Virus record (IMG/VR): IMGVR_UViG_3300035180_001680
Direction: 5' to 3' (one strand)
From: a virus
Taxonomy: Duplodnaviria > Caudoviricetes
Length of the DNA stretch: 64,000 bases
The notes below the pieces were generated by a model that saw only the letters and a list, made by a program, of their open reading frames with translations, was not told the DNA's origin and searched no databases. Position 1 is the first letter of the stretch, and every line of letters starts with the position of its first letter. Made by a program: the position numbers and the translations under genes. Shown here in pieces: positions 28,086 to 48,140 of this stretch.

Positions 28086-28225
28086 AGTGCGTCCTTTGTT
28101 ATAATTATTATTGTTTATTATTCTAATAATTATACACCGAGAAGATAAAGAAAAACAACATTTTAATGTTCAATTGACTACTTTCTTATTGTTGCTACAC
28201 CAGAAACATTTTCCAGTGTGCAGTT

Positions 28226-28768
28226 TCATTTCGAAAGTCCTTTAATAAATTCGTTGTATGGTTTAGCCCGTTCTGTATCTTTTGCAATAGCAGGTTCTGC
28301 TTCAGGCCATCTTCCCTTGATGATATAACGAGCATACCAATAAGCCCACCGTGGATCTTTTGTAATAACATGTTCTGCTTTAGGAAATCTTCCTTTGATG
28401 ACATCACGAGCATACCAATAAGCCCAACGTGGATCTTTTGCAATAGCAGGTTCTCCTTCAGGCCATCTTCCTTCAATGACATCACGAGCATACAAAAAAG
28501 CCCATTCTGGATCTTTTGCAATAGCAGGTTCTCCTTCAGGCCACTTTCCCTTGATGACATCACGATCATAACTATAAGCCCACTGTGGATCTGTTGCAAC
28601 AACAGATTCTGCTTCTTTTTTCTGTTGTGCGTTTAATTTTCCACTTTTTAGTGCCTCATATGCCATCTGTGGAGTAGCCATGTGCTTTTTATCAAACCCA
28701 TGCAATTTTTCTGGGTTTGAATGATATTTGTATAAATCCATTGCTTCAAACAAGTCGCGTAATTTCAT
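28226..28768 (-). CDS. Array unit 27 (180 aa, 4 repeats, last)
   Basis: Head, repeats and cap. Confidence 0.9.
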   Translation of the reverse strand: MKLRDLFEAMDLYKYHSNPEKLHGFDKKHMATPQMAYEALKSGKLNAQQKKEAESVVATDPQWAYSYDRDVIKGKWPEGEPAIAKDPEWAFLYARDVIEGRWPEGEPAIAKDPRWAYWYARDVIKGRFPKAEHVITKDPRWAYWYARYIIKGRWPEAEPAIAKDTERAKPYNEFIKGLSK

Positions 28769-29385
28769 TTCGAAAGTCCTTTGATGAATTCGTTGTAATT
28801 TTTAGCCCACTTTGGATCTTTTGCAATAGCAGGTTCTCCTTCAGGCCATCTTTCTTTGATGACATCACGAGCATACCCATAAGCCCACTTTGGATCTTTT
28901 GCAATGACAGATTCTGCTTCAGGCCATCTTCCTTTGATGACATCACGAGCATACCCATAAGCCAACTCTGGATCTTTTGCAATAGCAGGTTCTCCTTTAG
29001 GAAACCTTCCTTTGATGACCTCACGAGCATACCAATAAGCCAAACGTGGATCTTTTGCAACAGTAGGTTCTGCTTCAGGAAATCTTTCCTTGATGACATC
29101 ACGAGCATAAATATAAGCCAAACGTGGATCTTTTGCAATGACAGATTCTCCTTTAGGCCATCTTCCCTTGATGACATCATGAGCATACTCATAAGCCCAC
29201 TTTGTGTCTGTTGCAACAACAGATTCTGCTTCTTTCTTTTGTTGTGCATTCAGTTTTCCACTCTCCAGTGCCTCATATGCCATCTCAGGCGTAGCCATGT
29301 GCTTTTTATCAAACCCATGCAATTTTTCTGGGTTTGAATGATATTTGTATAAATCCATTGCTTCGAGTAAGTCACGTAGTTTCAT
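28765..29385 (-). CDS. Array unit 26 (206 aa, 5 repeats)
   Basis: Leader MKLRDLLEA. Confidence 0.9.
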   Translation of the reverse strand: MKLRDLLEAMDLYKYHSNPEKLHGFDKKHMATPEMAYEALESGKLNAQQKKEAESVVATDTKWAYEYAHDVIKGRWPKGESVIAKDPRLAYIYARDVIKERFPEAEPTVAKDPRLAYWYAREVIKGRFPKGEPAIAKDPELAYGYARDVIKGRWPEAESVIAKDPKWAYGYARDVIKERWPEGEPAIAKDPKWAKNYNEFIKGLSK

Positions 29386-30080
29386 TTCGAAAGTCCTTTG
29401 ATGTCTTGTTTATACCGTTTAGCATATGTTGGATCTTTTGCAATAGCAGGTTCTTATTCAGGCCATCTTCCTTTGATGACAGAACGAGCATAATTATAAG
29501 TCCAACGTGGGTCTTTTGCAATAGCAGGTTCTGCTTCAGGCCATCTTCCTTTGACGGCATCACGAGCATACAAAAAAGCCCATTCTGGATCTTTTGCAAT
29601 AGCAGGTTCTCCTTTAGGAAATCTTTCTTTGATAACATTACTAGCATACCAATAAGCCCACCGTGGATCTTTTGCAATAGCAGGTTCTCCTTCAAACCAT
29701 CTTCCTTTGATGACATCACGAGCATACAAAAAAGCCCATTCTGGGTCTTTTGCAATAGCAGGTTCTGCTTCAGACCATCTTCCTTTGATGACATCACGAG
29801 CATACAAAAAAGCCCATTCTGGGTCTTTTGCAATAGCAGGTTCTGCTTCAGACCATCTTCCTTTGATGACATTACGAGCATAACTATAAGCCCACTGTGG
29901 ATCTGTTGCAACAACAGACTCTGCTTCTTTTTTCTGTTGTGTGTTTAATTTTCCACCTTTTAATGCAAAAAAAGCCATCTCAGGAGTAGCCATGTGTTTT
30001 TTATCAAACCCATGCAATTTTTCTGGATTCGAGTGATATTTGTATAAATCCATTGCTTCAAACAAGTCGCGTAATTTCAT
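29382..30080 (-). pseudogene. Array unit 25, premature stop (208 of 232 aa, C-cap lost)
   Basis: In-frame TAA at 29454-29456 (GAA TAA GAA where siblings have GAA GCA/GGA GAA). The cap downstream is intact and in frame. Confidence 0.8.
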
Positions 30081-30775
30081 TTCGAAAGTCCTTTGATGTC
30101 TTGTTTATACCGTTTAGCATATGTCGGATCTTTTGCAATAACAGGTTCTGCTTCAGGAAATCTTCCTTTGATGACATTACGAGCATAATACGAAGCCCAC
30201 TGTGGATCTTTTGCAATAACAGATTCTGCTTCAGGAAATCTTCCTTTGATGACATTACGAGCATACCAATAAGCATACTGTGGATCTTTTGCAATAGCAG
30301 GTTCTCCTTCAGGCCATCTTCCTTTGATGGCACCACGAGCATACTCATAAGCCCATTCTGGATGTTTTGCAATAGCAGGTTCTCCTTCAGGCCATCTTCC
30401 TTTAATGACATCATGAGTATACCAATAAGCATACTCTGGATGTTTTGCAATAGCAGGTTCTCCTTCAGGCCATCTTCCTTTAGTGACATCATGAGTATAC
30501 CAATAAGCATACTTTGGATCTTTTGCAATAGCAGGTTCTCCTTCAGGCCATCTTCCTTTGATGGCATCACGAGCGTACTCATAAGCCCACCGTGGATCTG
30601 TTGCAACAACAGACTCTGCTTCTTTTTTCTGTTGTGCGTTTAATTTTCCACCTTTTAATGATTCAAAAGCCATCTCAGGCGTAGCCATGTGCTTTTTATC
30701 ATATCCATGCAATTTCTCTGGATTTGAGTGGTATTTGTATAAGTCCATTGCTTCGAATAAGTCACGTAATTTCAT
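30077..30775 (-). CDS. Array unit 24 (232 aa, 6 repeats)
   Basis: Cap allele DPTYAKRYKQDIKGLSK. Confidence 0.9.
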   Translation of the reverse strand: MKLRDLFEAMDLYKYHSNPEKLHGYDKKHMATPEMAFESLKGGKLNAQQKKEAESVVATDPRWAYEYARDAIKGRWPEGEPAIAKDPKYAYWYTHDVTKGRWPEGEPAIAKHPEYAYWYTHDVIKGRWPEGEPAIAKHPEWAYEYARGAIKGRWPEGEPAIAKDPQYAYWYARNVIKGRFPEAESVIAKDPQWASYYARNVIKGRFPEAEPVIAKDPTYAKRYKQDIKGLSK

Positions 30776-31314
30776 TTTGAAAGTCCTTTAATAAATTCGT
30801 TGTATGGTTTAGCCCACTCTGGATGTTTTGCAATAACAGGTTCTGCTTCAGGAAATCTTTCTTTGATGACATCACGAGCATACCCATAAGCCCACTCTGG
30901 ATCTTTTGCAATAACAGATTCTGCTTCAGGAAATCTTCCTTTGATGACATTACGAGCATACTCATAAGCCCAATCTGCTTTTTTTGCAATAGCAGGTTCT
31001 CCTTCAGGCCATCTTCCTTTGATGACATAACGAGCATACAAACAAGCCCAACGTGTATCTTTTGCAATGACAGATTCTCCTTTAGGAAATCTTTCTTTGA
31101 TGACATTACGAGCATACAAACAAGCCCATCTTGGATCTGTTGCAACAACAGACTCTGCTTCTTTTTTCTGTTGTGCGTTTAATTTTTCACCTTTTAATGC
31201 TTCAAAAGCCATCTCAGGCGTAGCCATGTGCTTTTTATCATATCCATGTAACTTCTCTGGATTTGAATGATATTTATATAAATCCATTGCTTCGAACAGA
31301 TCACGTAATTTCAT
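30772..31314 (-). CDS. Array unit 23 (180 aa, 4 repeats)
   Basis: Head, repeats and cap. Confidence 0.9.
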   Translation of the reverse strand: MKLRDLFEAMDLYKYHSNPEKLHGYDKKHMATPEMAFEALKGEKLNAQQKKEAESVVATDPRWACLYARNVIKERFPKGESVIAKDTRWACLYARYVIKGRWPEGEPAIAKKADWAYEYARNVIKGRFPEAESVIAKDPEWAYGYARDVIKERFPEAEPVIAKHPEWAKPYNEFIKGLSK

Positions 31315-31931
31315 TTCGAAAGTCCTTTAACAAATTCTTTGTATTTTTTAGCCCATTCTGGATCTTTTGCAATAACAGGTTCTGCTTCAGGAAATCTTCT
31401 TTTAATGACATCACGAGCATACCCATAAGCCCACTGTGGATCTTTTGCAATAGCAGGTTCTCCTTTAGGAAATCTTCTTTCGATGACTTGTTGAGCATAC
31501 ACATAAGCCCAATCTGCTTTTTTTGCAATAGCAGGTTCTCCTTTAGGAAATCTTTCCTTGATGACATTACGAGCATACAAACAAGCCCACTTTGGATCTT
31601 TTGCAATAGCAGGTTCTCCTTCAGGCCATCTTCCTTTAGTGACATCATGAGTATACCAATAAGCATACTCTGGATCTTTTGCAATAGCAGGTTCTGCTTC
31701 AGGAAATCTTCCTTTGATGATATCATCAGCATAATTATAAGCCCAACGTGGATCTTTTGCAATAACAGACTCTGCTTCTTTTTTCTGTTGTGCGTTTAAT
31801 TTTCCACTCTTTAGTGCTTCAAAAGCCATCTCAGGAGTAGCCATGTGTTTTTTATCATATCCATGTAACTTCTCTGGATTTGAGTGGTATTTGTATAAAT
31901 CCATTGCTTCGAATAAGTCACGTAATTTCAT
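31311..31931 (-). CDS. Array unit 22 (206 aa, 5 repeats)
   Basis: Head, repeats and cap. Confidence 0.9.
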   Translation of the reverse strand: MKLRDLFEAMDLYKYHSNPEKLHGYDKKHMATPEMAFEALKSGKLNAQQKKEAESVIAKDPRWAYNYADDIIKGRFPEAEPAIAKDPEYAYWYTHDVTKGRWPEGEPAIAKDPKWACLYARNVIKERFPKGEPAIAKKADWAYVYAQQVIERRFPKGEPAIAKDPQWAYGYARDVIKRRFPEAEPVIAKDPEWAKKYKEFVKGLSK

Positions 31932-32548
31932 TTTGAAAGTCCTTTGATGAATTCGTTGTATGGCTTAGCCCATTCTGGAACTTTTGCAATAACAGGTTCT
32001 GCTTCAGGAAATCTTCCTTTGATGACAGAACGAGCATAATATGAAGCCCACTGTGGATCTCTTGCAATAGCAGGTTCTCCTTCAGTCCATCTTCCTTTGA
32101 TGACATCACTAGCATACCAATAAGCCCAACGTGGATCTTTTGCAATAACAGATTCTGCTTCAGGAAATCTTCCTTTGATGACATCACGAGCATAATATGA
32201 AGCCCACTCTGGATGTTTTGCAATAACAGATTCTGCTTCAGGAAATCTTCCTTTGATGACTTGTTGAGCATACACATAAGCCCAATCTGCTTTTTTTGCA
32301 ATAACAGGTTCTGCTTCAGTAAATCTTCTTTCGATGACTTGTTGAGCATACCTATAAGCCCACCGTGGATCTTTTGCAACAACAGACTCTGCTTCTTTTT
32401 TCTGTTGTGCATTTAATTTTCCACTCTTTAATGCTTCAAAAGCCATCTCAGGCGTGGCCATGTGTTTTTTATCATATCCATGCAATTTTTCTGGGTTTGA
32501 ATGATATTTGTATAAATCCATTGCTTCGAATAGATCACGCAATTTCAT
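31928..32548 (-). CDS. Array unit 21 (206 aa, 5 repeats)
   Basis: Head, repeats and cap. Confidence 0.9.
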   Translation of the reverse strand: MKLRDLFEAMDLYKYHSNPEKLHGYDKKHMATPEMAFEALKSGKLNAQQKKEAESVVAKDPRWAYRYAQQVIERRFTEAEPVIAKKADWAYVYAQQVIKGRFPEAESVIAKHPEWASYYARDVIKGRFPEAESVIAKDPRWAYWYASDVIKGRWTEGEPAIARDPQWASYYARSVIKGRFPEAEPVIAKVPEWAKPYNEFIKGLSK

Positions 32549-33165
32549 TTCGAAAGTCCTTTAATAAATTCGTTGTATTTTTTAGCCCACTCTGGATTTT
32601 TTGCAATAGCAGGTTCTGCTTCAGGCCATCTTCCTTTGATGACATCACGAGCATACCAATAAGCATACTGTGGATCTTTTGCAATAGCAGGTTCTCCTTC
32701 AGGCCATCTTCCTTTGATGCTATCATCAGCATACTCATAAGCCCATTCTGGATCTTTTGCAATAGCAGGTTCTGCTTCAGGCCATCTTCCTTTGATGACA
32801 TTATGAGCATAATATGTGGCCCACTCTGGATGTTTTGCAATAACAGGTTCTGCTTTAGGCCATCTTCCTTCAATGATATCATCAGCATACCAATAAGCCC
32901 ACTGTGGGTTTTTTGCAATAACAGGTTCTGCCTCAGGCCATCTTCCTTGGATGATAGAACGAGCATACCAACAAGCAAACTTTGGATCTGTTGCAACAAC
33001 AGACTCTGCTTCTTTTTTCTGTTGCGCATTCAGTTTTCCACTCTCTAGTGCCTGATATGCCATCTCAGGCGTAGCCATGTGCTTTTTATCATATCCATGT
33101 AACTTCTCTGGATTTGAGTGGTATTTGTATAAATCCATCGCTTCGAATAAGTCACGTAGTTTCAT
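32545..33165 (-). CDS. Array unit 20 (206 aa, 5 repeats)
   Basis: Head, repeats and cap. Confidence 0.9.
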   Translation of the reverse strand: MKLRDLFEAMDLYKYHSNPEKLHGYDKKHMATPEMAYQALESGKLNAQQKKEAESVVATDPKFACWYARSIIQGRWPEAEPVIAKNPQWAYWYADDIIEGRWPKAEPVIAKHPEWATYYAHNVIKGRWPEAEPAIAKDPEWAYEYADDSIKGRWPEGEPAIAKDPQYAYWYARDVIKGRWPEAEPAIAKNPEWAKKYNEFIKGLSK

Positions 33166-33782
33166 TTTGAAAGTCCTTTGATGAATTCGTTGTATTTTTT
33201 AGCCCACTTTGGATCTTTTGCAATAACAGGTTCTCCTTCAGGCCATCTTCCTTTGATGACATAACGAGCATACTCATAAGCCCAACCTGGATCTTTTGCA
33301 ATAACAGGTTCTGCTTCAGTCCATCTTCCTTTGATGACATAACGAGCATACCAATAAGCCCACCTTGGGTCTTTTACAATAGCAGGTTCTGCCTTAGGCC
33401 ATCTTCCTTGGATGATAGAGCGAGCATATTCATAAGCCCAATCTGCTTTTTTTGCAATAACAGGTTCTGCTTCAGGCCATCTTCCTTTGATGACTTGTTG
33501 AGCATACACACAAGCCCAATCTGCTTTTTTTGCAATAACAGGTTCTGCTTCAGGAAATCTTCTTTCGATGACTTGTTGGGCGTACTCATAAGCCCACCGT
33601 GGATCTGTTGCAACAACAGATTCTGCTTCTTTCTTTTGTTGTGCATTTAATTTTCCACTCTTTAGTGCCTCATAAGCCATCTCAGGAGTAGCCATGTGTT
33701 TTTTATCATATCCATGTAACTTCTCTGGATTTGAATGATATTTGTATAAATCCATTGCTTCGAATAGATCACGTAATTTCAT
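33162..33782 (-). CDS. Array unit 19 (206 aa, 5 repeats)
   Basis: Head, repeats and cap. Confidence 0.9.
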   Translation of the reverse strand: MKLRDLFEAMDLYKYHSNPEKLHGYDKKHMATPEMAYEALKSGKLNAQQKKEAESVVATDPRWAYEYAQQVIERRFPEAEPVIAKKADWACVYAQQVIKGRWPEAEPVIAKKADWAYEYARSIIQGRWPKAEPAIVKDPRWAYWYARYVIKGRWTEAEPVIAKDPGWAYEYARYVIKGRWPEGEPVIAKDPKWAKKYNEFIKGLSK

Positions 33783-34399
33783 TTTGAAAGTCCTTTGATG
33801 TCTTGTTTATACCGTTTAGCATATGTTGGGTCTTTTGCAATAGCAGGTTCTCCTTCAATCCATCTTCCTTTGATGACATCACTAGCATACCAATAAGCCC
33901 AACGTGGATCTTTTGCAATAACAGATTCTGCTTCAGGAAATCTTCCTTTGATGACATCGCGAGCATACAACCAAGCCCATTCTGGATCTTTTACAATAAC
34001 AGATTCTGCTTCAGGAAATCTTCCTTTAATGACATCATGAGCGTACATATAAGCCGTCCGTGGATTTTTTGCAATAACAGATTCTGCTTCAGGAAATCTT
34101 CCTTTGATGAAATCACGAGCATACAAAAAAGCCCATTCTGGATCTTTTGCAATAACAGATTCTGCTTCAGGCCATCTTCCTTTGATGATATCATCAACAT
34201 ACCTATAAGCCCAACGTGGATCTTTTGCGATAACAGACTCTGCTTCTTTTTTCTGTTGTGCATTTAATTTTCCACCTTTTAATGCTCCAAAAGCCATCTC
34301 AGGCGTAGCCATGTGTTTTTTATCAAACCCATGCAATTTTTCTGGGTTTGAATGATATTTGTATAAATTCATCGCTTCGAATAAGTCGCGTAGTTTCAT
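33779..34399 (-). CDS. Array unit 18 (206 aa, 5 repeats)
   Basis: Cap allele DPTYAKRYKQDIKGLSK. Confidence 0.9.
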   Translation of the reverse strand: MKLRDLFEAMNLYKYHSNPEKLHGFDKKHMATPEMAFGALKGGKLNAQQKKEAESVIAKDPRWAYRYVDDIIKGRWPEAESVIAKDPEWAFLYARDFIKGRFPEAESVIAKNPRTAYMYAHDVIKGRFPEAESVIVKDPEWAWLYARDVIKGRFPEAESVIAKDPRWAYWYASDVIKGRWIEGEPAIAKDPTYAKRYKQDIKGLSK

Positions 34400-35094
34400 T
34401 TCGAAAGTCCTTTGATGAATTCGTTGTATTTTTTAGCCCACCTTGGATCTTTTACAATAGCAGGTTCTCCTTTAGGAAATCTTCCGTTGATGACATCATG
34501 AGCATACCAATAAGCCGTCCGTGGATTTTTTGCAACAGCAGGTTCTCCCTTAGGAAATCTTTCCTCGATGACATCACGAGCATACCAATAAGCATACTCT
34601 GGATCTTTTGCAATAACAGGTTCTGCTTCAGGCCATCTTCCTTTGATGACATTACGAACATACTCATAAGCCCATTCTGGATCTTTTGCAATAACAGGTT
34701 CCGCTTTAGGCCACCTTCCCTTAATGACATCATGAGCATACCAATAAGCATACTCTGGATCTTTTGCAATAACAGGTTCCGCTTTAGGCCACCTTCCCTT
34801 AATGACATCATGAGCATACCAATAAGCATACTCTGGATCTTTTGTAATAACAGGTTCCGCTTTAGGAAATCTTCCTTCAATGACATCACGAGCATACCAA
34901 TAAGCCCACTTTATATCTGTTGCAACAACAGATTCTGCTTCTTTTTTCTGTGGTGTATTTAATTTTCCACTCTTTAGTGCCTCATATGCCATCTGTGGAG
35001 TAGCCATGTGCTTTTTATCATATCCATGCAATTTCTCTGGATTCGAGTGATATTTGTATAAATCCATCGCTTCGAATAGATCACGTAGTTTCAT
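34396..35094 (-). CDS. Array unit 17 (232 aa, 6 repeats)
   Basis: Contains an exact 78-bp tandem duplication at 34676-34844. Confidence 0.9.
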   Translation of the reverse strand: MKLRDLFEAMDLYKYHSNPEKLHGYDKKHMATPQMAYEALKSGKLNTPQKKEAESVVATDIKWAYWYARDVIEGRFPKAEPVITKDPEYAYWYAHDVIKGRWPKAEPVIAKDPEYAYWYAHDVIKGRWPKAEPVIAKDPEWAYEYVRNVIKGRWPEAEPVIAKDPEYAYWYARDVIEERFPKGEPAVAKNPRTAYWYAHDVINGRFPKGEPAIVKDPRWAKKYNEFIKGLSK

Positions 35095-39645: not shown

Positions 39646-40262
39646 TTCGAAAGTCCTTTGATGTCTTGTTTATACCGTTTAGCATATGTTGGATCTTTTG
39701 CAATAACAGGTTCTGCTTCAGGAAATCTTCCTTTGATGACATCACGAGCATACCCATAAGCAAACTCTGGATCTTTTGCAATAACAGGTTCTGCTTTAGG
39801 CCATCTTCCTTTGATGACATCATGAGTATACCAATAAGCCGACTTTGGATATTTTGCAATAACAGATTCTGCTTCAGAAAATCTTCCTTTGATGACATCA
39901 CGAGCATAATATGAAGCCCAACCTGGATCTTTTGCAATAACAGGTTCTGCTTCAGGCCATCTTCCTTTGATGACATCACGAGCATACAAACAAGCCCACT
40001 GTGGATTTTTTGCAATAGCAGGTTCTCCTTTAGGAAATCTTCTTTCGGTGACATCACGAGCATAATAATGAGCCAACTCTGGAACTTTTGCAATAACAGA
40101 CTCTGCTTCTTTTTTCTGTTGTGCGTTTAATTTTCCACTCTTTAGTGCCTCATAGGCCATCTCAGGAGAAACCATGTGCCTTTTATCATATCCATGTAAC
40201 TTCTCTGGATTTGAGTGGTATTTGTATAAATTCATTGCTTCGAATAAGTCACGTAGTTTCAT
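39642..40262 (-). CDS. Array unit 9 (206 aa, 5 repeats)
   Basis: Cap allele DPTYAKRYKQDIKGLSK. Confidence 0.9.
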   Translation of the reverse strand: MKLRDLFEAMNLYKYHSNPEKLHGYDKRHMVSPEMAYEALKSGKLNAQQKKEAESVIAKVPELAHYYARDVTERRFPKGEPAIAKNPQWACLYARDVIKGRWPEAEPVIAKDPGWASYYARDVIKGRFSEAESVIAKYPKSAYWYTHDVIKGRWPKAEPVIAKDPEFAYGYARDVIKGRFPEAEPVIAKDPTYAKRYKQDIKGLSK

Positions 40263-40879
40263 TTCGAAAGTCCTTTAATAAATTCGTTGTAATTTTTAGT
40301 CGACTGTAGGTTTTTTGCAATAGCAGGTTCTCCTTCAGGCCATCTTCCTTTGATGACATGACGAGCATAATATGAAGCCCACCGTGGAGCTTTTGCAATA
40401 GCAGGTTCTCCTTCAGGCCATCTTCCTTTGATGACATCACGAGCATACCCATAAGCATACTCTGGGTGTTTTGCAATGACAGATTCTCCTTTAGGAAATC
40501 TTTCTTCGATGACATAACGAGCATAATATGAAGCCCATTGTGGATCTTTTGCAATAGCAGGTTCTCCTTCAGGCCATCTTCCTTTAATGACACCATGAGC
40601 ATACCAATAAGCATACTCTGGGTGTTTTGCAATGATAGATTCTCCTTTAGGAAATCTTTCTTTGATGACTCGTTGAGCATACTCATAAGCCCACTGTGGA
40701 TCTGTTGCAACAACAGACTCTGCTTCTTTTTTCTGTTGTGCATTCAGTTTTCCACTCTCTAGTGCCTCATAAGCCATCTCAGGAGTAGCCATGTGCTTTT
40801 TATCAAACCCATGCAATTTTTCTGGGTTTGAATGATATTTGTATAAATCCATTGCTTCGAATAAGTCACGTAATTTCAT
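40259..40879 (-). CDS. Array unit 8 (206 aa, 5 repeats)
   Basis: Head, repeats and cap. Confidence 0.9.
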   Translation of the reverse strand: MKLRDLFEAMDLYKYHSNPEKLHGFDKKHMATPEMAYEALESGKLNAQQKKEAESVVATDPQWAYEYAQRVIKERFPKGESIIAKHPEYAYWYAHGVIKGRWPEGEPAIAKDPQWASYYARYVIEERFPKGESVIAKHPEYAYGYARDVIKGRWPEGEPAIAKAPRWASYYARHVIKGRWPEGEPAIAKNLQSTKNYNEFIKGLSK

Positions 40880-41730
40880 TTTGAAATTCCTTTAATAAAT
40901 TCGTTGTATTTTTTAGCCCACTTTGGATGTTTTGCAATAACAGATTCTGCTTCAGGAAATCTTCCCCTGATGACATTATGAGCATACCAATAAGCCCAAC
41001 GTGGATCTTTTGCAATAACAGGTTCTGCTTCAGGCCATCTTCCTTTAATGAAATCACGAGCATACGTATAAGCCCAATCTGCTTTTTTTGCAATAGCAGG
41101 TTCTGCTTCAGGCCATCTTCCTTTGATGACATCACGAGCATACAAAAAAGCCCGTTCTGGATCTTTTGCAATAGCAGGTTCTCCTTTAGGAAATCTTTCT
41201 TTGATGACAAAATGAGCGTAATATGAAGCCCACTGTGGATCTGTTGCAATAGCAGGTTCTCCTTTAGGCCATCTTCCTTTAATGACATCACGAGCATAAC
41301 TATAAGCATACCCTGGAACTTTTGCAATAGCAGGTTCTGCTTCAGGCCATCTTTCTTTGATGACATCACGAGCGTACCAATAAGCCGACTCTGGAACTTT
41401 TGCAAAGACAGATTCTCCTTCAGGCCATCTTCCTTTGATGACATCACGAGCATACCAATAAGCCAACTCTAGATCTTTTGCAATAACAGGTTCTCCTTTA
41501 GGAAACCTTCCTTTGATGAAATCACGAGCGTACTCATAAGCCCATCTTGGATCTTTTGCAACAACAGATTCTGCTTCTTTTTTCTGTTGTGCATTTAATT
41601 TTCCACCTTTTAATGCTTCAAAAGCCATCTCAGGAGTAGCCATGTGTTTTTTATCAAACCCATGCAATTTCTCTGGATTCGAGTGATATTTGTATAAATC
41701 CATTGCTTCGAATAAGTCACGTAGTTTCAT
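40876..41730 (-). CDS. Array unit 7 (284 aa, 8 repeats)
   Basis: Head, repeats and cap. Confidence 0.9.
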   Translation of the reverse strand: MKLRDLFEAMDLYKYHSNPEKLHGFDKKHMATPEMAFEALKGGKLNAQQKKEAESVVAKDPRWAYEYARDFIKGRFPKGEPVIAKDLELAYWYARDVIKGRWPEGESVFAKVPESAYWYARDVIKERWPEAEPAIAKVPGYAYSYARDVIKGRWPKGEPAIATDPQWASYYAHFVIKERFPKGEPAIAKDPERAFLYARDVIKGRWPEAEPAIAKKADWAYTYARDFIKGRWPEAEPVIAKDPRWAYWYAHNVIRGRFPEAESVIAKHPKWAKKYNEFIKGISK

Positions 41731-42815
41731 TTCGAAAGTCCTTTGATGAATTCGTTGTATTTTTTAGTCCATCTTGGATCTTTTGCAATAACAGATTCTG
41801 CTTCAGGCCATCTTCCTTTAATGACATGACGAGCATACCAATAAGCATACTCTGGATGTTTTACAATAGCAGGTTCTCCTTCAGACCATCTTCCTTTGAT
41901 GACATAACGAGCATACTCATAAGCCCACCGTGGGTTTTTTGCAATAACAGGTTCTCCTTCAGGCCATCTTCCTTTGATGACATAATGAGCATACACACAA
42001 GCCCACTGTGGATCTTTTGCAATAACAGGTTCTCCTTTAGGAAACCTTCCTTTGATGACATTGAGAGCATACTCATAAGCCAACTCTGGATCTTTTGCAA
42101 TAACAGGTTCTCCTTTAGGAAACCTTCCTTTGATGACATTGAGAGCATACGCATAAGCCCAATATGCTTTTTTTGCAATAGCAGGTTCTCCTTCAGGCCA
42201 TCTTCCTTTAATGAAATCACGAGCATACATATAAGCCCAACCTGGATCTTTTGCAATAACATGTTCTACTTCAGGCCATCTTCCTTTGATGACATAACGA
42301 GCATACTCACAAGCCCAATGTGGATCTTTTGCAATAGCAGGTTCTCCTTTAGGAAACCTTCCTTTAATGAAATCATGAGCATACGTATAAGCCCAATCTG
42401 CTTTTTTTGCAATAGCGGGTTCTCCTTCAGGCCATCTTCCTTTGATGAAATTACGAGCATACGCATAAGCCCACTTTGGATCTTTTGCAATAACAGGTTC
42501 TCCTTTAGTAAACCTTCCTTTGATGACATCTGTAGCATACTCATAAGCCAACTCTGGAACTTTTGCAATGACAGATTCTGCTTTAGGCCATCTTCCTTTG
42601 ATGACATTACGAGCATACCTATAAGCCCACGTTGTATCTGTTGCAACAACAGATTCTGCTTCTTTCTTTTGTTGTGCATTTAATTTTCCACTCTTTAGTG
42701 CCTCATAGGCCATCTCAGGAGTAGCCATGTGTTTTTTATCAAACCCATGCAATTTTTCTGGATTCGAGTGGTATTTGTATAAATCCATTGCTTCGAATAA
42801 GTCACGTAGTTTCAT
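41727..42815 (-). CDS. Array unit 6 (362 aa, 11 repeats, longest)
   Basis: Head, 11 repeats and cap. Confidence 0.9.
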   Translation of the reverse strand: MKLRDLFEAMDLYKYHSNPEKLHGFDKKHMATPEMAYEALKSGKLNAQQKKEAESVVATDTTWAYRYARNVIKGRWPKAESVIAKVPELAYEYATDVIKGRFTKGEPVIAKDPKWAYAYARNFIKGRWPEGEPAIAKKADWAYTYAHDFIKGRFPKGEPAIAKDPHWACEYARYVIKGRWPEVEHVIAKDPGWAYMYARDFIKGRWPEGEPAIAKKAYWAYAYALNVIKGRFPKGEPVIAKDPELAYEYALNVIKGRFPKGEPVIAKDPQWACVYAHYVIKGRWPEGEPVIAKNPRWAYEYARYVIKGRWSEGEPAIVKHPEYAYWYARHVIKGRWPEAESVIAKDPRWTKKYNEFIKGLSK

Positions 42816-43585
42816 TTCGAAAGTCCTTTGATGAATTCGTTGTATTTTTTAGCCCACTGTGGATCTTTTGCAATAGCAGGTTCTCCTTCAGGCCATCTTC
42901 CTTTGATGACATCACGAACATACAAAAAAGCCAACTCTGGATTTTTTGCAATAACAGGTTCTGCTTCATGCCATCTTCCTTTGATGACATAACGAGCATA
43001 CGCATAAGCATACTCTGGAACTTTTGCAATAGCAGGTTCTCCTTTAGGAAACCTTCCTTTGATAACATTATGAGCATACAAATAAGCCAACTCTGGATCT
43101 TTTGCAAAGACATATTCTCCTTTAGGAAATCTTTCTTTAATGACATCTTCAGCATACTCATAAGCCCACTGTGGATTTTTTGCAATAGCAGGTTCTCCTT
43201 CAGGCCATCTTCCTTTGATGACACCACGAGCATACCAATAAGCATACTTTGGATCTTTTGCAATAGCAGGTTCTCCTTCAGGCCATCTTCCTTTGATGAC
43301 ATAATGATACTCATAAGCCCACTTTGGATCTTTTGCAATAACAGGTTCTGCTTCAGGCCATCTTCCTTTGATGACATTACAAGCATACTCATAAGCCCAC
43401 CGTGGATCTGTTGCAACAACAGATTCTGCTTCTTTCTTTTGTTGTGCATTCAGTTTTCCACTCTCTAGTGCCCCATAGGCCATCTCAGGCGTAGCCATGT
43501 GTTTTTTATCATATCCATGCAATTTTTCTGGATTTGAGTGGTATTTGTATAAATCCATTGCTTCAAATAAGTCACGTAATTTCAT
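42812..43585 (-). CDS. Array unit 5 (257 aa, 7 repeats, one codon deleted)
   Basis: Repeat 2 reads AYEYHYVIK, lacking the conserved Ala9. Confidence 0.9.
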   Translation of the reverse strand: MKLRDLFEAMDLYKYHSNPEKLHGYDKKHMATPEMAYGALESGKLNAQQKKEAESVVATDPRWAYEYACNVIKGRWPEAEPVIAKDPKWAYEYHYVIKGRWPEGEPAIAKDPKYAYWYARGVIKGRWPEGEPAIAKNPQWAYEYAEDVIKERFPKGEYVFAKDPELAYLYAHNVIKGRFPKGEPAIAKVPEYAYAYARYVIKGRWHEAEPVIAKNPELAFLYVRDVIKGRWPEGEPAIAKDPQWAKKYNEFIKGLSK

Positions 43586-44358
43586 TTTGAAATTCCTTTG
43601 ATGAATTGGTTATACTGTTTAGCATATGTTGGGTCTTTTGCAATAACAGGTTCTGCTTCAGGAAATCTTCCTTTGATGACATCACGAGCATACTCATAAG
43701 CCCACCGTGGATCTTTTGCAATAGCAGGTTCTCCTTCAGGCCATCTTCCTTTAATGACAGAACGAGCATAGTATAAAGCCCAATCTGCTTTTTTTGCAAT
43801 AACAGGTTCTCCTTCAGACCATCTTCCTTTGATGACATCACGAGCATAACCATAAGCCCAATCTGGATCTTTTGCAATAGCAGGTTCTCCTTTAGGCCAT
43901 CTTCCTTTGATGATATTACGAGCATACTCATAAGCCCACTGTGGACCTGTTGCAATAGCAGGTTCTCCTTTAGGCCATCTTCCTTTGATGACATCACGAG
44001 CATACCAATAAGCCAACCGTGGATCTTTTGCAATAACAGGTTCTGCTTCAGGCCATCTTCCTTTGATGGCATCGCGAGCATACCAATAAGCCAACTCTGG
44101 ATCTTTTGCAATAACAGGTTCTGCTTCAGGCCATCTTCTTTTGATGACAGAACGAGCATACCAATGAGCATACTCTGGATCTGTTACAATAACAGATTCT
44201 GCTTCTTTCTTTTGTTGTGCGTTTAATTTTCTACTCTTTAGTGCTTTAAAAGCCATCTCAGGCGTAGCCATGTGCTTTTTATCAAACCCATGCAATTTTT
44301 CTGGGTTTGAATGATATTTGTATAAATCCATCGCTTCGAATAAGTCACGTAGTTTCAT
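43582..44358 (-). CDS. Array unit 4 (258 aa, 7 repeats)
   Basis: Head, repeats and cap. ATGA overlap. Confidence 0.9.
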   Translation of the reverse strand: MKLRDLFEAMDLYKYHSNPEKLHGFDKKHMATPEMAFKALKSRKLNAQQKKEAESVIVTDPEYAHWYARSVIKRRWPEAEPVIAKDPELAYWYARDAIKGRWPEAEPVIAKDPRLAYWYARDVIKGRWPKGEPAIATGPQWAYEYARNIIKGRWPKGEPAIAKDPDWAYGYARDVIKGRWSEGEPVIAKKADWALYYARSVIKGRWPEGEPAIAKDPRWAYEYARDVIKGRFPEAEPVIAKDPTYAKQYNQFIKGISK

Positions 44359-45209
44359 TTTGAAATTCCTTTGATGTATTGTTTATAATATTTAGCATAC
44401 TCTGGATGTTTTGCAATAACAGGTTCTCCTTCAGGAAATCTTCCTTTGATGACATCACGAGCATACCAATAAGCATACTCTGGATGTTTTGCAATAACAG
44501 GTTCTCCTTCAGGAAATCTTCCTTTGATGACATCACGAGCATACCAATATGCTGACCCTGACTCTTTTGCAATAGCAGGTTCTCCTTCAGTCCATCTTCC
44601 TTTAATTACAGAACGAGCATAATGTAAAGCCCACCGTGGATCTTTTGCAATAGCAGGTTCTGCTCCAGGCCATCTTCCTTTGATGACATAACAAGCATAC
44701 TCATAAGCCCACTCTAGATCTTTTACAATAGCAGGTTCTCCTTCAGGCCATCTTCCTTCGACGACATCGTGAGCGTACATATAAGCCATCCGTGGATCTT
44801 TTGCAATAACAGGTTCTGCTTTAGGCCATCTTCCCTTGATGACATCACGAGCATAAATATAAGCCCACTTTGGATCTTTTGCAATAACAGGTTCTGTTTT
44901 AGGCCATCTTCCTTTGATGACATAACGAGCATACCTATAAGCCCACTCTGGAACTTTTGCAAAGACAGATTCTCCTTCAGGCCATCTTCCTTTGATGACA
45001 TCACGAGCATAAATGTAAACCAACTCTGGATCTGTTGCAACAACAGATTCTGCTTCTTTTCTCTGTTGTGCGTTTAATTTTCCACCTTTTAATGCTTCAA
45101 AAGCCATCTCAGGAGTAGCCATGTGTTTTTTATCAAACCCATGCAATTTTTTTGGATTCGAGTGATATTTGTATAAATCCATTGCTTCGAATAAGTCGCG
45201 TAGTTTCAT
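44355..45209 (-). CDS. Array unit 3 (284 aa, 8 repeats)
   Basis: Contains an exact 78-bp tandem duplication near its 3' end. Confidence 0.9.
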   Translation of the reverse strand: MKLRDLFEAMDLYKYHSNPKKLHGFDKKHMATPEMAFEALKGGKLNAQQRKEAESVVATDPELVYIYARDVIKGRWPEGESVFAKVPEWAYRYARYVIKGRWPKTEPVIAKDPKWAYIYARDVIKGRWPKAEPVIAKDPRMAYMYAHDVVEGRWPEGEPAIVKDLEWAYEYACYVIKGRWPGAEPAIAKDPRWALHYARSVIKGRWTEGEPAIAKESGSAYWYARDVIKGRFPEGEPVIAKHPEYAYWYARDVIKGRFPEGEPVIAKHPEYAKYYKQYIKGISK

Positions 45210-45904
45210 TTCGAAAGTCCTTTGATGAATTCGTTGTATTTGTTAGCCCATTCTGGATCTTTTGCAATAGCAGGTTCTCCTTCAGGCCATCTTCCTTTAA
45301 TGACATGACGAGCATACACATAAGCCCACTTTGGATCTTTTGCAATAGCAGGTTCTGCTTCAGGAAATCTTTCTTTAATGACATAATAAGCATAATATGA
45401 AGCCGACTGTAGATCTTTTACAATAGCAGGTTCTCCTTCAGGCCATCTTCCTTTAATGACATGACGAGCATACAACCAAGCCCATTCTGGATCTTTTGCA
45501 ATAACAGGTTCTGCTTTAGTCCATCTTCCTTTAATGACATGATGAGCATACCAACAAGCCCACTCTGGATCTTTTGCAATAACAGGTTCTGCTTTAGGCC
45601 ATCTTCCTTTGATGACATAACGAGCATAACTATAAGCCCACTCTGAATCTTCTGCAATAACAGGTTCTACTTTAGGCCATCTTCCTTTGATGACATAACG
45701 AGCATACCTATAAGCCCATCGTGGATCTGTTGCAATAACAGACTCCGCTTCTTTTTTCTGTTGTGCGTTTAGTTTTCCACTCTTTAGTGCCTCATAGGCC
45801 ATCTCAAGAGTAATTATGTGCTTTTTATCATATCCAGGTAACGTCTCTGGATTCGAGTGATATTTGTATAAGTCCATTGCTTCAAATAAGTCACGTAATT
45901 TCAT
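45206..45904 (-). CDS. Array unit 2 (232 aa, 6 repeats)
   Basis: Head variant ETLPGYDKKHI, shared with unit 11. Confidence 0.9.
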   Translation of the reverse strand: MKLRDLFEAMDLYKYHSNPETLPGYDKKHIITLEMAYEALKSGKLNAQQKKEAESVIATDPRWAYRYARYVIKGRWPKVEPVIAEDSEWAYSYARYVIKGRWPKAEPVIAKDPEWACWYAHHVIKGRWTKAEPVIAKDPEWAWLYARHVIKGRWPEGEPAIVKDLQSASYYAYYVIKERFPEAEPAIAKDPKWAYVYARHVIKGRWPEGEPAIAKDPEWANKYNEFIKGLSK

Positions 45905-46521
45905 TTTGAAAGTCCTTTAATAAATTCGTTGTATTTGTTAGCCCACTGTGGATCTTTTGCAATAGCAGGTTCTCCTTTAGGAAACCTTCCTTTGATGACA
46001 TGACGAGCATACGCATAAGCCCAATATGCTTTTTTTGCAATAGCAGGTTCTGCTTCAGGCCATCTTCCTTTAATGACATAACGAGCATACCCACAAGCAT
46101 ACTCTGGATCTTTTGCAATAGCAGGTTCTCCTTTAGGAAACCTTCCTTTGATGACATTGAGAGCATACGCATAAGCCCAATATGCTTTTTTTGCAATAGC
46201 AGGTTCTGCTTCAGGCCATCTTCCTTTGATGACATCACGAGCATACGCATGAACCCACAGTAGATCTTTTGCAATAACAGGTTCCGCTTTAGGCCATCTT
46301 CCCTTAATGACATAATGAGCATACCAATAAGCCCACTGTGGATCTGTTGCAACAACAGACTCTGCTTCTTTTTTCTGTTGTGCGTTTAATTTTCCACCTT
46401 TTAATGCTCTAAAAGCCATCTCAGGCGTAGCTATGTGTTTTTTATCATATCCATGTAACTTCTCTGGGTTTGAATGATATTTGTATAAATCCATTGCTTC
46501 GAATAAGTCGCGCAATTTCAT
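45901..46521 (-). CDS. Array unit 1 (206 aa, 5 repeats)
   Basis: Head, repeats and cap. Starts 6 nt after the 526-aa ORF. Confidence 0.9.
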   Translation of the reverse strand: MKLRDLFEAMDLYKYHSNPEKLHGYDKKHIATPEMAFRALKGGKLNAQQKKEAESVVATDPQWAYWYAHYVIKGRWPKAEPVIAKDLLWVHAYARDVIKGRWPEAEPAIAKKAYWAYAYALNVIKGRFPKGEPAIAKDPEYACGYARYVIKGRWPEAEPAIAKKAYWAYAYARHVIKGRFPKGEPAIAKDPQWANKYNEFIKGLSK

Positions 46522-48132: not shown

Positions 48133-48140
48133 TATTTATA
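48133..48140 (-). promoter_or_regulatory. T4-type late promoter TATAAATA for the 526-aa gene and array operon
   Basis: Exact consensus on the minus strand, 25 nt upstream of the ATG at 48108. Confidence 0.75.

What the first reader, a model, noticed from the sequence alone, without database searches (positions are those of the whole stretch)
28226..46521. 18-kb tandem array of 27 paralogous solenoid-repeat genes: a candidate phage-encoded binder repertoire
Seen: 27 head-to-tail genes, all built as a conserved head, 4-11 copies of a 26-aa repeat (156 in total) and a C-cap, with no two units identical. The second half of the head (TPEMAYEAL...EAESVVAT) and the cap look like degenerate repeats. 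Established: capped solenoids with a variable face are how ankyrin, HEAT/alphaRep and lamprey VLR binders are organised. Inference: this is a natural library of related binders with different specificities, such as an anti-defence or host-takeover arsenal. I know of no described phage system like this but could not search.
Basis: partly seen in the sequence, partly recalled or inferred. Interest (0 to 1): 0.96.

Follow-up and report, generated by a model that had tools for sequence, protein, structure and literature searches.

The report
Phage array of 27 variable-repeat genes
A giant T4-like phage carries 27 back-to-back genes for small helical-repeat proteins with a constant front end and a fast-evolving face, most likely a built-in set of different binders, possibly packed into the virus head, from a large phage protein family that nobody has described.

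Summary
Window 28226-46521 (minus strand) has 27 head-to-tail genes, each overlapping the next by ATGA. Each has a 59-aa head, 4-11 copies of a 26-aa repeat (156 in all) and a 17-aa cap. Twenty-five are intact.

AlphaFold gives a confident alpha-solenoid (pLDDT 92.5) with no solved or named relative.

Heads are under strong purifying selection (dN/dS about 0.07). In the repeats, synonymous sites barely vary and changes pile up at positions 3, 4, 6, 7, 10 and 11, one face of helix A. Five other phage loci vary at the same positions.

A close relative has only 12 units, so the array turns over quickly. The family spans 6,623 representative clusters, nearly all viral where taxa are recorded, and I found no description of it.

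New context:
- The array follows a gene with a T4-type late promoter.
- That gene's PcfJ-like domain is fused to the same repeats in relatives, and in other phages to Ank, LRR, LRV or DUF4116 repeats.
- Its PA5oct homologue is a virion protein.
- Relatives sit beside the prohead protease, scaffold and capsid genes.
- Every unit starts with a leader ending L-F-E|A, the T4 prohead-protease motif.

Reading: a diversified binder family, probably head-packaged. Targets are unknown. All listed scan notes on this array come from this same genome.

The parts
48133..48140 (-). TATAAATA box (T4-type late promoter) 24 nt upstream of the P0121 ATG, with a GAGG Shine-Dalgarno between
   Evidence: The same box sits 21-24 nt before the ATGs at 10761, 18492 and 61711.
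46528..48108 (-). P0121, 526 aa, first gene of the putative operon. It has a low-complexity N-terminal half and a C-terminal PcfJ-like 'domain X'.
46531..47286 (-). Domain X (P0121 aa 275-526): a helical bundle plus an alpha/beta subdomain with an invariant GT-WC motif. Relatives fuse it to the 26-aa repeats.
28226..46521 (-). Array of 27 translationally coupled unit genes
46495..46521 (-). Gene 1 leader, aa 1-9 (MKLRDLFEA). It contains L-F-E, the T4 prohead-protease motif, and is present in all 27 units.
   Evidence: PMC9026906
46429..46494 (-). Gene 1 head motif, aa 10-31 (MDLYKYHSNPE.L.GY...). This is where leaderless relatives begin.
46345..46428 (-). Gene 1 N-cap, aa 32-59, a degenerate repeat
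45955..46344 (-). Gene 1 repeats 1-5 (26 aa each)
45904..45954 (-). Gene 1 C-cap (17 aa, a half repeat). Its K-G codons AAAGGA form the ribosome-binding site of the next gene.
45901..46521 (-). unit 1, 206 aa, 5 repeats
45206..45904 (-). unit 2, 232 aa, 6 repeats
44355..45209 (-). unit 3, 284 aa, 8 repeats
43582..44358 (-). unit 4, 258 aa, 7 repeats
42812..43585 (-). unit 5, 257 aa, 7 repeats (repeat 2 has 25 aa)
41727..42815 (-). unit 6, 362 aa, 11 repeats
40876..41730 (-). unit 7, 284 aa, 8 repeats
40259..40879 (-). unit 8, 206 aa, 5 repeats
39642..40262 (-). unit 9, 206 aa, 5 repeats
38949..39645 (-). unit 10, 6 repeats, disrupted by a 2-nt deletion in repeat 5 (frameshift)
38332..38952 (-). 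unit 11, 206 aa, 5 repeats
37715..38335 (-). unit 12, 206 aa, 5 repeats
37176..37718 (-). unit 13, 180 aa, 4 repeats
36481..37179 (-). unit 14, 232 aa, 6 repeats
35786..36484 (-). unit 15, 232 aa, 6 repeats
35091..35789 (-). unit 16, 232 aa, 6 repeats
34396..35094 (-). unit 17, 232 aa, 6 repeats
33779..34399 (-). unit 18, 206 aa, 5 repeats
33162..33782 (-). unit 19, 206 aa, 5 repeats
32545..33165 (-). unit 20, 206 aa, 5 repeats
31928..32548 (-). unit 21, 206 aa, 5 repeats
31311..31931 (-). unit 22, 206 aa, 5 repeats
30772..31314 (-). unit 23, 180 aa, 4 repeats
30077..30775 (-). unit 24, 232 aa, 6 repeats
29382..30080 (-). unit 25, 6 repeats, with an in-frame TAA at codon 209 (29454-29456). Runs X2 and X3 read GAA there.
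28765..29385 (-). unit 26, 206 aa, 5 repeats
28226..28768 (-). unit 27, 180 aa, 4 repeats
28170..28229 (-). Vestigial 28th start: an ATGA overlap followed by MKLH... and a stop after 19 codons
28147..28170 (-). Weak AT-rich hairpin plus T-run, the likely end of the transcription unit. A TG-n-TATAAT promoter for the next gene follows.
   Evidence: read from the sequence; not found by the scan

Best explanation
The array is a multigene family of basic, capped alpha-solenoid proteins. It forms one long transcription unit: a T4-type late promoter, then a PcfJ-like-domain protein (P0121), then 27 genes coupled by ATGA overlaps.

Each unit has four parts:
- a 9-aa leader;
- a conserved head, presumably a docking or anchoring element;
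- 4-11 two-helix repeats whose helix-A face (positions 3, 4, 6, 7, 10, 11) is hypervariable;
- a half-repeat cap.

The repeats are the target-binding module, and diversifying selection keeps each paralogue different. Unequal recombination and gene conversion shuffle repeats, change their number, and create and delete whole units.

The units work with, or in the same place as, the PcfJ-like domain, which relatives carry on the same polypeptide.

Inferred, not shown: the proteins are made late and targeted into the prohead by the leader. The gp21-type prohead protease cuts them after L-F-E. They travel with the DNA as pre-made binders of host proteins, as T4 internal proteins such as IPI* do. 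Their targets are unknown.
For: SHOWN
- Anatomy.
- Fold: an AF2 alpha-solenoid, pLDDT 92.5, pTM 0.81.
- Selection within the array: heads have dS 0.57 and dN 0.043. Repeat synonymous sites are nearly invariant, while nonsynonymous change is concentrated in codons 3, 7, 10 and 11.
- Selection between phages: the best unit pairs show 0.465 nonsynonymous against 0.054 synonymous changes per variable-position codon. Heads show the reverse, 0.073 against 0.151.
- The same positions are the most variable in five other phage loci.
- Mosaic structure: the best-matching repeat usually lies in a non-adjacent gene, head similarity does not fall with distance, and 55 shared exact blocks are 60 nt or longer.
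- Turnover: a relative whose P0121 tail is about 97% identical has 12 units rather than 27, with no one-to-one orthology. Two scaffolds that are 99% identical differ by one repeat in one unit.
- Domain X is fused to the same repeats in IMG/VR contigs (BLASTP 3e-30) and in AFDB entry A0A5C7J2L6.
- The Atlas structural neighbours of domain X are phage proteins that fuse it to WG, DUF4116, LRV, LRR and Ank repeats.

SUPPORT FOR LATE EXPRESSION AND PACKAGING
- TATAAATA lies 24 nt before P0121. The same layout precedes three other genes in the window.
- There is no intergenic space anywhere in the array.
- The PA5oct homologue of domain X is annotated as a virion protein by ESI-MS/MS and sits directly after the T4-type large terminase.
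- In L022 and L002 the family lies directly after the prohead protease, scaffold, major capsid protein and homing endonuclease genes.
- In L022, three units and the unrelated domain-X protein all begin MKLHE.
- In-frame polyprotein relatives have unit junctions LNE|TM, IDE|AM and LTE|TM, matching the window's LFE|AM.
- T4 gp21 cuts after L/I-x-E, and the T4 capsid-targeting sequence is about 10 aa long (PMC9026906, PMC8442874).
- 26 of 27 units are basic, pI 8.7-9.7. T4 internal proteins are also basic (PMC8442874).
Against: - There are no expression, proteomic or binding data for any family member. No RNA run holds the locus.
- The late promoter is a consensus match. The genes for the late sigma factor and the prohead protease of this genome could not be checked, because no whole genome is held.
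- L-x-E is a three-residue motif. It may simply be part of an N-terminal helix inherited together with domain X.
- P0121 itself lacks the leader.
- Other arrays (L025, 13 units) have no leader at all, so packaging cannot be a universal property of the family.
- PA5oct gp205 shares only domain X, not the repeats.
- The fold is a generic helical repeat. No solved complex shows which face binds.
- The structure-based complex test of a unit with domain X gave no answer.
Confidence: 0.6

Rival explanations
1. The units are a diversified binder family, but they stay in the infected cell and are not packaged. They would act as adaptors that bring different host or phage proteins to the PcfJ-like domain protein, or as free inhibitors. 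This matches the first reader's host-takeover or anti-defence reading.
For: - All the binder evidence applies.
- Leaderless arrays exist.
- The window's array lies inside the replication gene cluster, between DNA polymerase B and the sliding clamp.
- P0142 also lies near a DNA polymerase B gene.
Against: - The late-type promoter.
- The conserved leader, which is kept even at junctions inside polyproteins.
- Synteny with the head module in two lineages.
- The virion MS annotation of the domain-X homologue.
Confidence: 0.2
2. The units read nucleic-acid sequence in a modular way, one repeat per nucleotide as in TALE, PUF or PPR proteins. The variable residues would form a recognition code and the repeat number would set the site length.
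For: - The repeats are nearly identical at the DNA level apart from a few hypervariable residues, as in TALEs.
- The variable residues are rich in R, H, D, N, Q, S and Y.
- The units are basic.
- Weak structural rows include PPR, PUF and HAT proteins at Z 4.4-6.0.
- Automatic annotation assigns HTH_35.
Against: - 77 different residue combinations occur at positions 7, 10 and 11 among 154 repeats, and 112 combinations at four positions. That is far more than a nucleotide code needs.
- Exposed W, Y and L dominate positions 4, 6 and 7, which looks like a paratope.
- In other phages the equivalent slot after domain X holds Ank, LRR or WG repeats, which bind proteins or ligands.
- Z scores below 8 are not informative for helical repeats.
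- The HTH_35 match covers only profile positions 32-50 of 75, with no stretch passing on its own.
Confidence: 0.1
3. The units are displayed on the outside of the virion as decoration or adhesin proteins. They would be anchored by the head or by domain X and would bind varied surfaces or host envelope components.
For: - The late promoter.
- Structural-gene neighbourhoods: baseplate in L025, neck and sheath in L028, head in L022 and L002.
- A PcfJ-like domain precedes the variable region in some DGR target proteins (PMC5758913).
Against: - The L-x-E leader and the polyprotein junctions point to processing inside the prohead.
- My own knowledge, not tested here: alpha-solenoids without secretion signals are typical of intracellular binding, whereas phage adhesins are usually beta-rich.
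Confidence: 0.07
4. The array is an assembly artefact, or a recent selfish amplification whose differences have no function.
For: The source is a short-read metagenome. Logan k=31 contigs break throughout the array.
Against: - No exact repeat reaches 127 nt.
- All the k-mers occur in four runs.
- A related array was assembled identically from two samples.
- Head dS of 0.57 with dN/dS of 0.07 shows old, individually maintained copies.
- Arrays occur in many phages.
Confidence: 0.02
5. The variation comes from a targeted hypermutation system, such as a diversity-generating retroelement, rather than from germline paralogue evolution.
For: Variation is confined to a few codons, and codon 11 varies mostly at its first base.
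Against: - No reverse-transcriptase hit on any ORF of 300 aa or more in the window, each scanned with Pfam, PHROGs or both.
- There is no template-repeat and variable-repeat pair.
- The variable bases are not adenine-specific.
- W/F at position 17 is a two-base dimorphism, TGG against TTT, with no intermediates. That indicates shuffled old alleles.
Confidence: 0.01

Closest known systems
T4 internal proteins (IPI, IPII, IPIII, Alt) with the capsid-targeting sequence
   Same: - A short N-terminal leader ending in a (L/I)-x-E protease motif.
- The leader is shared by otherwise unrelated proteins (MKLHE in L022).
- Basic proteins with a late-type promoter.
- The concept of a diverse, fast-evolving set of injected anti-defence proteins (PMC3012670, PMC9026906, PMC8442874).
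   Different: - Packaging and cleavage are not shown here.
- The leader sequence differs (MKLRDLFEA here, MKTYQEFIAE in T4).
- T4 has three or four unrelated internal proteins, not 27 paralogues built on one repeat scaffold.
- IPI* is a compact alpha/beta protein, not a solenoid.
SPN3US head paralog family B (20 members, 17 of them consecutive genes)
   Same: A large, mostly tandem paralogue family of a jumbo phage. Its members are head proteins, and copy number varies widely between related phages (PMC5694885).
   Different: - No sequence relation was tested or is claimed.
- That family is proven to be in the virion by MS, and this one is not.
- No hypervariable repeat face is described for it.
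Capped repeat-protein binder libraries (DARPins, alphaRep/HEAT-like, TPR designs) and lamprey VLRs
   Same: An N-cap, a variable number of near-identical repeats and a C-cap. Variation is confined to a few surface positions on one face.
   Different: - The repeat is a different 26-aa two-helix unit with no Pfam model.
- Diversity is encoded in the germline as separate genes. It is not produced by somatic assembly as in VLRs, or by design.
Ankyrin and other repeat multigene families of poxviruses and giant viruses
   Same: Viral lineage-specific expansions of repeat-protein genes, often joined to a constant adaptor domain, with rapid gain and loss.
   Different: Those are eukaryotic viruses with different repeats and a different adaptor (F-box/PRANC). 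This comparison rests on my own knowledge and was not tested here.
TALE effectors
   Same: Repeats are nearly identical at the nucleotide level with a few hypervariable residues. Repeat number varies, the ends are conserved, and each genome carries several paralogues.
   Different: The residue combinations are far too many for a base code. There is no evidence of DNA binding, and the repeat is 26 aa rather than 34.
DUF4116, LRV and PBS-lyase HEAT-like short helical repeats
   Same: Two-helix repeats of about 24-26 aa. These are the nearest named structural neighbours (Foldseek E 0.019, TM 0.63 for a DUF4116 protein). DUF4116 is also found fused to domain X.
   Different: No hmmscan hit to any of these families at E up to 1.
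PcfJ-like domain (PF14284), for P0121 domain X
   Same: The nearest ESM-Atlas feature clusters (scores 0.94-0.95) include two in which about a third of members carry PF14284. Foldseek rows are weak, E 0.016-0.06. A PcfJ-like domain also precedes diversified regions in DGR targets (PMC5758913).
   Different: No Pfam hit at E up to 1. PcfJ itself has no known function.

Membership tests
HTH_35 (PF13693), the name given by automatic annotation | A match to the full 75-position winged-helix profile that passes as a domain | tested here: not met
   The 362-aa unit sums to 37.9 bits (cutoff 25), but no stretch passes on its own. Only profile positions 32-50 are matched, once per repeat. The 206-aa unit scores 22.5 bits, below the cutoff.
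DUF4116 (PF13475), LRV, HEAT, TPR, Sel1 and ankyrin repeat families | A sequence match to the family HMM | tested here: not met
   no hit at E up to 1. Only weak structural resemblance was found.
Alpha-solenoid (capped helical repeat) architecture | Stacked helix-turn-helix repeats with capping elements | tested here: met
   pLDDT 92.5 with paired helices of 12 and 7 residues per repeat. The N-cap and C-cap align to the repeat.
T4-type capsid-targeted internal proteins | An N-terminal leader of about 10 aa that ends at a (L/I)-x-E prohead-protease site | tested here: met
   All 27 units start MKLRDL[FL]E-A. Relatives start MKLHE or MKLSE, and polyprotein junctions read LNE|TM, IDE|AM and LTE|TM. 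The motif definition comes from PMC9026906.
T4-type capsid-targeted internal proteins | The leader is shared by otherwise unrelated proteins of the same phage | tested here: met
   - In L022, three units and the domain-X protein all start MKLHE.
- In the window, the late genes at 18492 (MKLRGTLE) and 61711 (MSFKLLKE) also have E at residue 8.
- In the window, P0121 itself lacks the leader.
T4-type capsid-targeted internal proteins | Late transcription | tested here: inconclusive
   TATAAATA lies 24 nt upstream of P0121. There are no RNA data, and the late sigma gene could not be looked for.
T4-type capsid-targeted internal proteins | Physical presence in the capsid, and cleavage by the prohead protease | not testable with these tools
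   Only indirect evidence: the PA5oct domain-X homologue is annotated as a virion protein by ESI-MS/MS.
PcfJ-like (PF14284), for domain X | A match to the Pfam HMM | tested here: not met
   no hit at E up to 1. Only Atlas feature similarity and weak Foldseek rows support the link.
Diversity-generating retroelement target | A nearby reverse transcriptase, a template repeat, and adenine-specific variation | tested here: not met
   No RT hit on any ORF of 300 aa or more in the 64-kb window, each scanned with Pfam, PHROGs or both. The variable bases are not adenine-specific. The rest of the genome was not searchable.
TALE/PUF/PPR-type modular nucleic-acid readers | A small set of recurring specificity-residue combinations | tested here: not met
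   77 combinations at positions 7, 10 and 11 among 154 repeats. The commonest covers 8%.

The most novel reading that the evidence does not exclude
A jumbo phage encodes in its germline a repertoire of about 25 different solenoid binders, built on an undescribed 26-aa repeat. It makes them late from one operon, loads them into the capsid through a short leader cut by the prohead protease, and injects them with its DNA. They would then act as a pre-made, multi-specific shield against host defence proteins. The repertoire is remodelled between strains by repeat shuffling. The same repeat family, spanning thousands of phage protein clusters, would be a general phage counter-defence scaffold. It is often joined to a PcfJ-like domain, and in other phages that domain carries Ank, LRR or DUF4116 repeats in the same role.
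Probability: 0.3. Interest if true: 0.92.

Novelty: new variant of a known kind. Interest (0 to 1): 0.8.

Why it matters
If the reading is right, phages can carry something like an innate repertoire: dozens of binders on one scaffold, each held distinct by selection and quickly reshuffled between strains.

- It would widen the T4 internal-protein idea, from one injected inhibitor per defence enzyme to a whole arsenal.
- It would give a handle on a very large uncharacterised phage family: 6,623 representative clusters, with no Pfam model that captures the repeat.
- It links that family to a second uncharacterised module, the PcfJ-like domain, which partners with at least six kinds of binding repeat in phages.
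- The 26-aa repeat, with natural caps and a mapped variable face, is also a ready-made binder scaffold for protein engineering.
- Every step can be tested with ordinary experiments: virion proteomics, pull-downs and structures.

Tried and rejected
- INPHARED phage records: tblastn of a unit and megablast of 20 kb of flank found nothing.
- Whole genome: none is held. The prohead protease, the late sigma factor and further leader-bearing genes could not be searched.
- Fold searches of the unit: Foldseek against PDB and BFVD gave only generic helical-repeat rows with E above 0.001. VIA-align gave Z of 6.0 or less.
- Fold searches of domain X: Foldseek against PDB found nothing. VIA-align gave only weak rows, Z 5.8 or less, many of them GNAT-fold acyltransferases. 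This is a lead, not a finding.
- Complex prediction of a unit with domain X gave no answer, score 0.01. It is not evidence for or against binding.
- Sigma-70 promoter scan inside the array: 27 sites against 53.8 expected from shuffles, so there is no excess. The TTGCAA-17-TATAAT hits come from IAK and YxY codons.
- Hairpin in the head (ESVVATD codons): it folds in only 19 of 27 heads, so I do not treat it as a required signal.
- DGR or hypermutation: rejected (see rival explanations).
- Nucleotide-code reading: disfavoured by the number of residue combinations.
- Literature: no paper in the library contains the repeat motif. PcfJ-like appears in a single paper. A jumbo-phage comparative review does not mention the family.
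- RNA evidence: no RNA run holds the locus.

Full report
**1. What is there**

The window comes from a T4-like jumbo phage. It carries:
- a family-B DNA polymerase with an intein;
- a sliding-clamp homologue;
- gp46/gp47-type nuclease subunits;
- homing endonucleases;
- virion proteins.

Scan notes place further parts of the same genome more than 230 kb beyond the window. The nearest cultured relatives by the gp46 homologue are XacN1, RsoM2USA and PA5oct, at 32-41% identity.

From 46521 down to 28226 on the minus strand lie 27 genes. Each overlaps the next by ATGA. All 26 junctions read AAAGGA (once AAAGAA), 8 nt, then ATGA. The Lys-Gly codons of one gene's cap therefore form the ribosome-binding site of the next gene.

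Each unit consists of a 59-aa head, n x 26 aa and a 17-aa cap, with n = 4-11 and 156 repeats in total. Twenty-five units are intact. Gene 10 carries a 2-nt deletion. Gene 25 carries an in-frame TAA, which two other metagenomes read as GAA.

Head residues 32-59 and the cap are degenerate repeats, so they act as N- and C-caps.

**2. Is it real?**

- The longest exact repeat inside the array is 100 nt, and none reaches 127 nt. A large-k assembly can therefore resolve the array.
- Four metagenome runs (sediment and microbial mat, four studies) contain the array's k-mers at 99% identity or more. Their long flanking contigs end exactly at 28251 and 46483.
- A related array was assembled with the same unit order, 99.98% identical over 5.2 kb, from two different samples.
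- No long read was available.

**3. Fold and family**

AlphaFold2 gives a confident alpha-solenoid: pLDDT 92.5, pTM 0.81, with a 12-residue and a 7-residue helix per repeat.

No Pfam family fits. Only a partial, repeat-wise match to HTH_35 appears, which explains some automatic 'winged-helix' names.

No solved structure stands out. Foldseek gives E above 0.3 and VIA-align gives Z of 6 or less, both generic for helical repeats. The named structural neighbours are DUF4116, LRV, HEAT and TPR proteins.

A profile of the unit finds 6,623 representative clusters at E of 1e-3 or better among 1.84 billion proteins, and 1,378 at 1e-30 or better. Where taxa are recorded they are almost all Uroviricota. 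Among genomes, it appears only on MAG contigs and in one Chromobacterium isolate. No paper in the library contains the motif.

**4. Evolution**

*Heads.* Pairwise dS is 0.57 and dN is 0.043. The copies are old and each is maintained by purifying selection.

*Repeats.* Most synonymous sites are 97% conserved or more across 154 repeats. Nonsynonymous differences concentrate in codons 3, 7, 10 and 11, and to a lesser degree in 4 and 6. These positions follow an i, i+4, i+7, i+8 spacing, which puts them on one face of helix A.

*Scaffold positions.* They show a few dimorphisms, such as W/F encoded as TGG or TTT with no intermediates. This indicates shuffled alleles.

*Mosaicism.* The best match of a repeat usually lies in a non-adjacent gene, and head similarity does not fall with distance along the array.

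*Between phages.* The best-matching unit pairs show 0.465 nonsynonymous against 0.054 synonymous changes per variable codon. Heads show 0.073 against 0.151.

*Other arrays.* The same positions are the most variable in five other phage loci.

Together this is the signature of diversifying selection on a binding surface, set against a background of concerted evolution.

**5. Relatives and turnover**

| Locus or protein | What it shows |
|---|---|
| L023, L024 | The tail of the upstream gene is about 97% identical to the window's, but only 12 units follow. They are 69-91% identical to the window's units, with no one-to-one orthology and a different downstream flank. |
| 211-kb JGI contig | It carries a 99%-identical copy of the upstream gene and a 3-repeat unit that the window lacks. 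|
| L025, L026 | 13 and 10 leaderless units in tandem. The scaffolds are 99% identical, yet one unit differs by exactly one repeat. |
| L022, L027 | Smaller sets of 3-5 units. |
| P0150 (819 aa), P0142 (2,253 aa) | In-frame polyproteins: P0150 has 4 units and P0142 many more. |

The relatives therefore do not carry an invariant array.

**6. The neighbouring gene is the key to context**

The gene just upstream, P0121 (46528-48108), ends 6 nt before unit 1. Its C-terminal 250 aa ('domain X', with an invariant GT-WC motif) is fused N-terminally to 8-9 copies of the same 26-aa repeat in IMG/VR contigs L002-L005. BLASTP gives 3e-30 at 34% identity. AFDB entry A0A5C7J2L6 has the same fusion.

Atlas structural neighbours are phage proteins in which this domain precedes WG, DUF4116, LRV, LRR or ankyrin repeats. 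By language-model features it resembles PcfJ-like clusters. No Pfam hit supports formal membership. A PcfJ-like domain also precedes the diversified region of some DGR targets (PMC5758913).

So a constant domain joined to an exchangeable binding-repeat module is a recurrent phage design. In this phage the module has been detached and multiplied 27-fold. This is the best independent support for reading the repeats as binders of proteins or ligands.

**7. Where and when?** (inference)

- An exact TATAAATA lies 24 nt upstream of the P0121 start, with a Shine-Dalgarno between. The same arrangement, at 21-24 nt, precedes three other genes in the window. This is the T4 late-promoter layout.
- The array has no internal gaps. 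It ends with a vestigial unit start and a weak hairpin with a T-run, followed by a new extended -10 promoter.
- The PA5oct homologue of domain X is annotated as a virion protein by ESI-MS/MS. It lies directly after the T4-type large terminase.
- In L022 and L002 the family follows the prohead protease, scaffold, major capsid protein and homing endonuclease genes.
- All window units begin MKLRDL[FL]E-A. Leaderless relatives start exactly at the following Met.
- In L022, three units and the unrelated domain-X protein all start MKLHE.
- PA5oct gp205 starts MKLFE.
- Polyprotein junctions read LNE|TM, IDE|AM and LTE|TM.
- T4 gp21 cuts after L/I-x-E. The T4 capsid-targeting sequence is a removable N-terminal peptide of about 10 aa on basic internal proteins (PMC9026906, PMC8442874). 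The units here are basic, pI 8.7-9.7 in 26 of 27.
- T-even internal proteins are described as a diverse set of injected anti-defence proteins that share only the targeting sequence (PMC3012670). SPN3US packs a 20-member paralogue family into its head (PMC5694885).

I therefore favour late synthesis, capsid targeting, proteolytic trimming and co-injection. None of these steps has been observed.

**8. Rivals**

- An intracellular, non-packaged binder family remains quite possible. Leaderless arrays exist, and the window's array lies among replication genes.
- A TALE- or PUF-like nucleic-acid code is disfavoured by the number of residue combinations and by the Ank and LRR analogy.
- External adhesins, an assembly artefact and DGR-type mutagenesis are unlikely, for the reasons given under rival explanations.

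**9. Verdict**

The binder-library architecture is strongly supported, and the anti-defence function is untested.

The finding is a new variant of known kinds: viral repeat-protein multigene families, and T4-type packaged effector sets. It is built on an undescribed, very widespread phage repeat family and tied to an undescribed partner domain.

Other first-stage notes on the same genome proposed the late-promoter and leader idea independently. I reached it from relatives and polyproteins. I could check those notes' claims only inside this window.

Noticed in passing
window 49066-52860 (-): The family-B DNA polymerase is interrupted by an intein with a LAGLIDADG homing-endonuclease domain (Pfam Intein_splicing and LAGLIDADG_3).
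   Followed up: no
window 19201-20721 (+) and 22396-23898 (-): Two paralogous homing-endonuclease genes (phrog_3339, DUF7487). One has a (T)ATAAATA box 23 nt upstream. Relatives L002 and L022 carry a homing-endonuclease gene between the major capsid gene and the repeat genes; L002's is of this family (phrog_3339).
   Followed up: partly
window 18492-19094 (+) and 61711-62100 (+): Two unrelated small genes with TATAAATA 21-24 nt upstream start MKLRGTLE and MSFKLLKE. Like the array units, they have Glu at residue 8 after a hydrophobic residue, so they are further candidates for leader-bearing proteins.
   Followed up: partly
window 119-8341 (+); L025:13470-20342: The 2,740-aa giant ORF has no Pfam domain. 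It is homologous (BLASTP 3e-67) to the giant protein that directly follows the 13-unit array in L025. L001 also has a 2,552-aa ORF next to a repeat protein.
   Followed up: partly
window 28226-46521, both strands: Many long alternative-frame ORFs (up to 326 aa on the plus strand) run through the array. They exist because the repeat consensus has no stop codons in those frames, so they are most likely a by-product.
   Followed up: no
Heads of 19 of the 27 units, e.g. window 46345-46375 (-): The codons for E-S-V-V-A-T-D form an 8-10 bp hairpin. On the antisense strand a T-run follows it. Two units (IVT variant) carry a compensatory G-C to A-T change. Eight units (VAK variant) lack the hairpin.
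   Followed up: partly
window 40780-41443: Metagenome run X3 shows no contig depth over unit 7, although neighbouring bins are deep. This may be a strain-level difference in array content, but a filter hole cannot be excluded.
   Followed up: no
L025:10935-11357 vs L026:3648-4148: Two scaffolds 99.3-99.9% identical differ by exactly one 26-aa repeat in one unit (141 against 167 aa). Repeat gain and loss is therefore happening at strain level.
   Followed up: yes
P0142 (L029:8001-14762) and P0150 (L028:5042-7501): In some phages the units are fused in frame into polyproteins of 819 to 2,253 aa. Their unit junctions look like prohead-protease sites.
   Followed up: partly
L023:7574-8353: A papain-family (Peptidase_C1) gene lies just downstream of the 12-unit array in the close relative. 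The window has no such gene.
   Followed up: no
window 52868-53188 (-): A Cys-rich 106-aa ORF starts MRTKMFQQFLE-Y. This resembles the RDFLFE-Y start of the domain-X fusion proteins in L002.
   Followed up: no
window 27771-28085 (-): A 104-aa gene between the array and the clamp gene has its own extended -10 promoter (TGTATAAT). It matches phrog_2831 and phrog_32803, both of unknown function.
   Followed up: no
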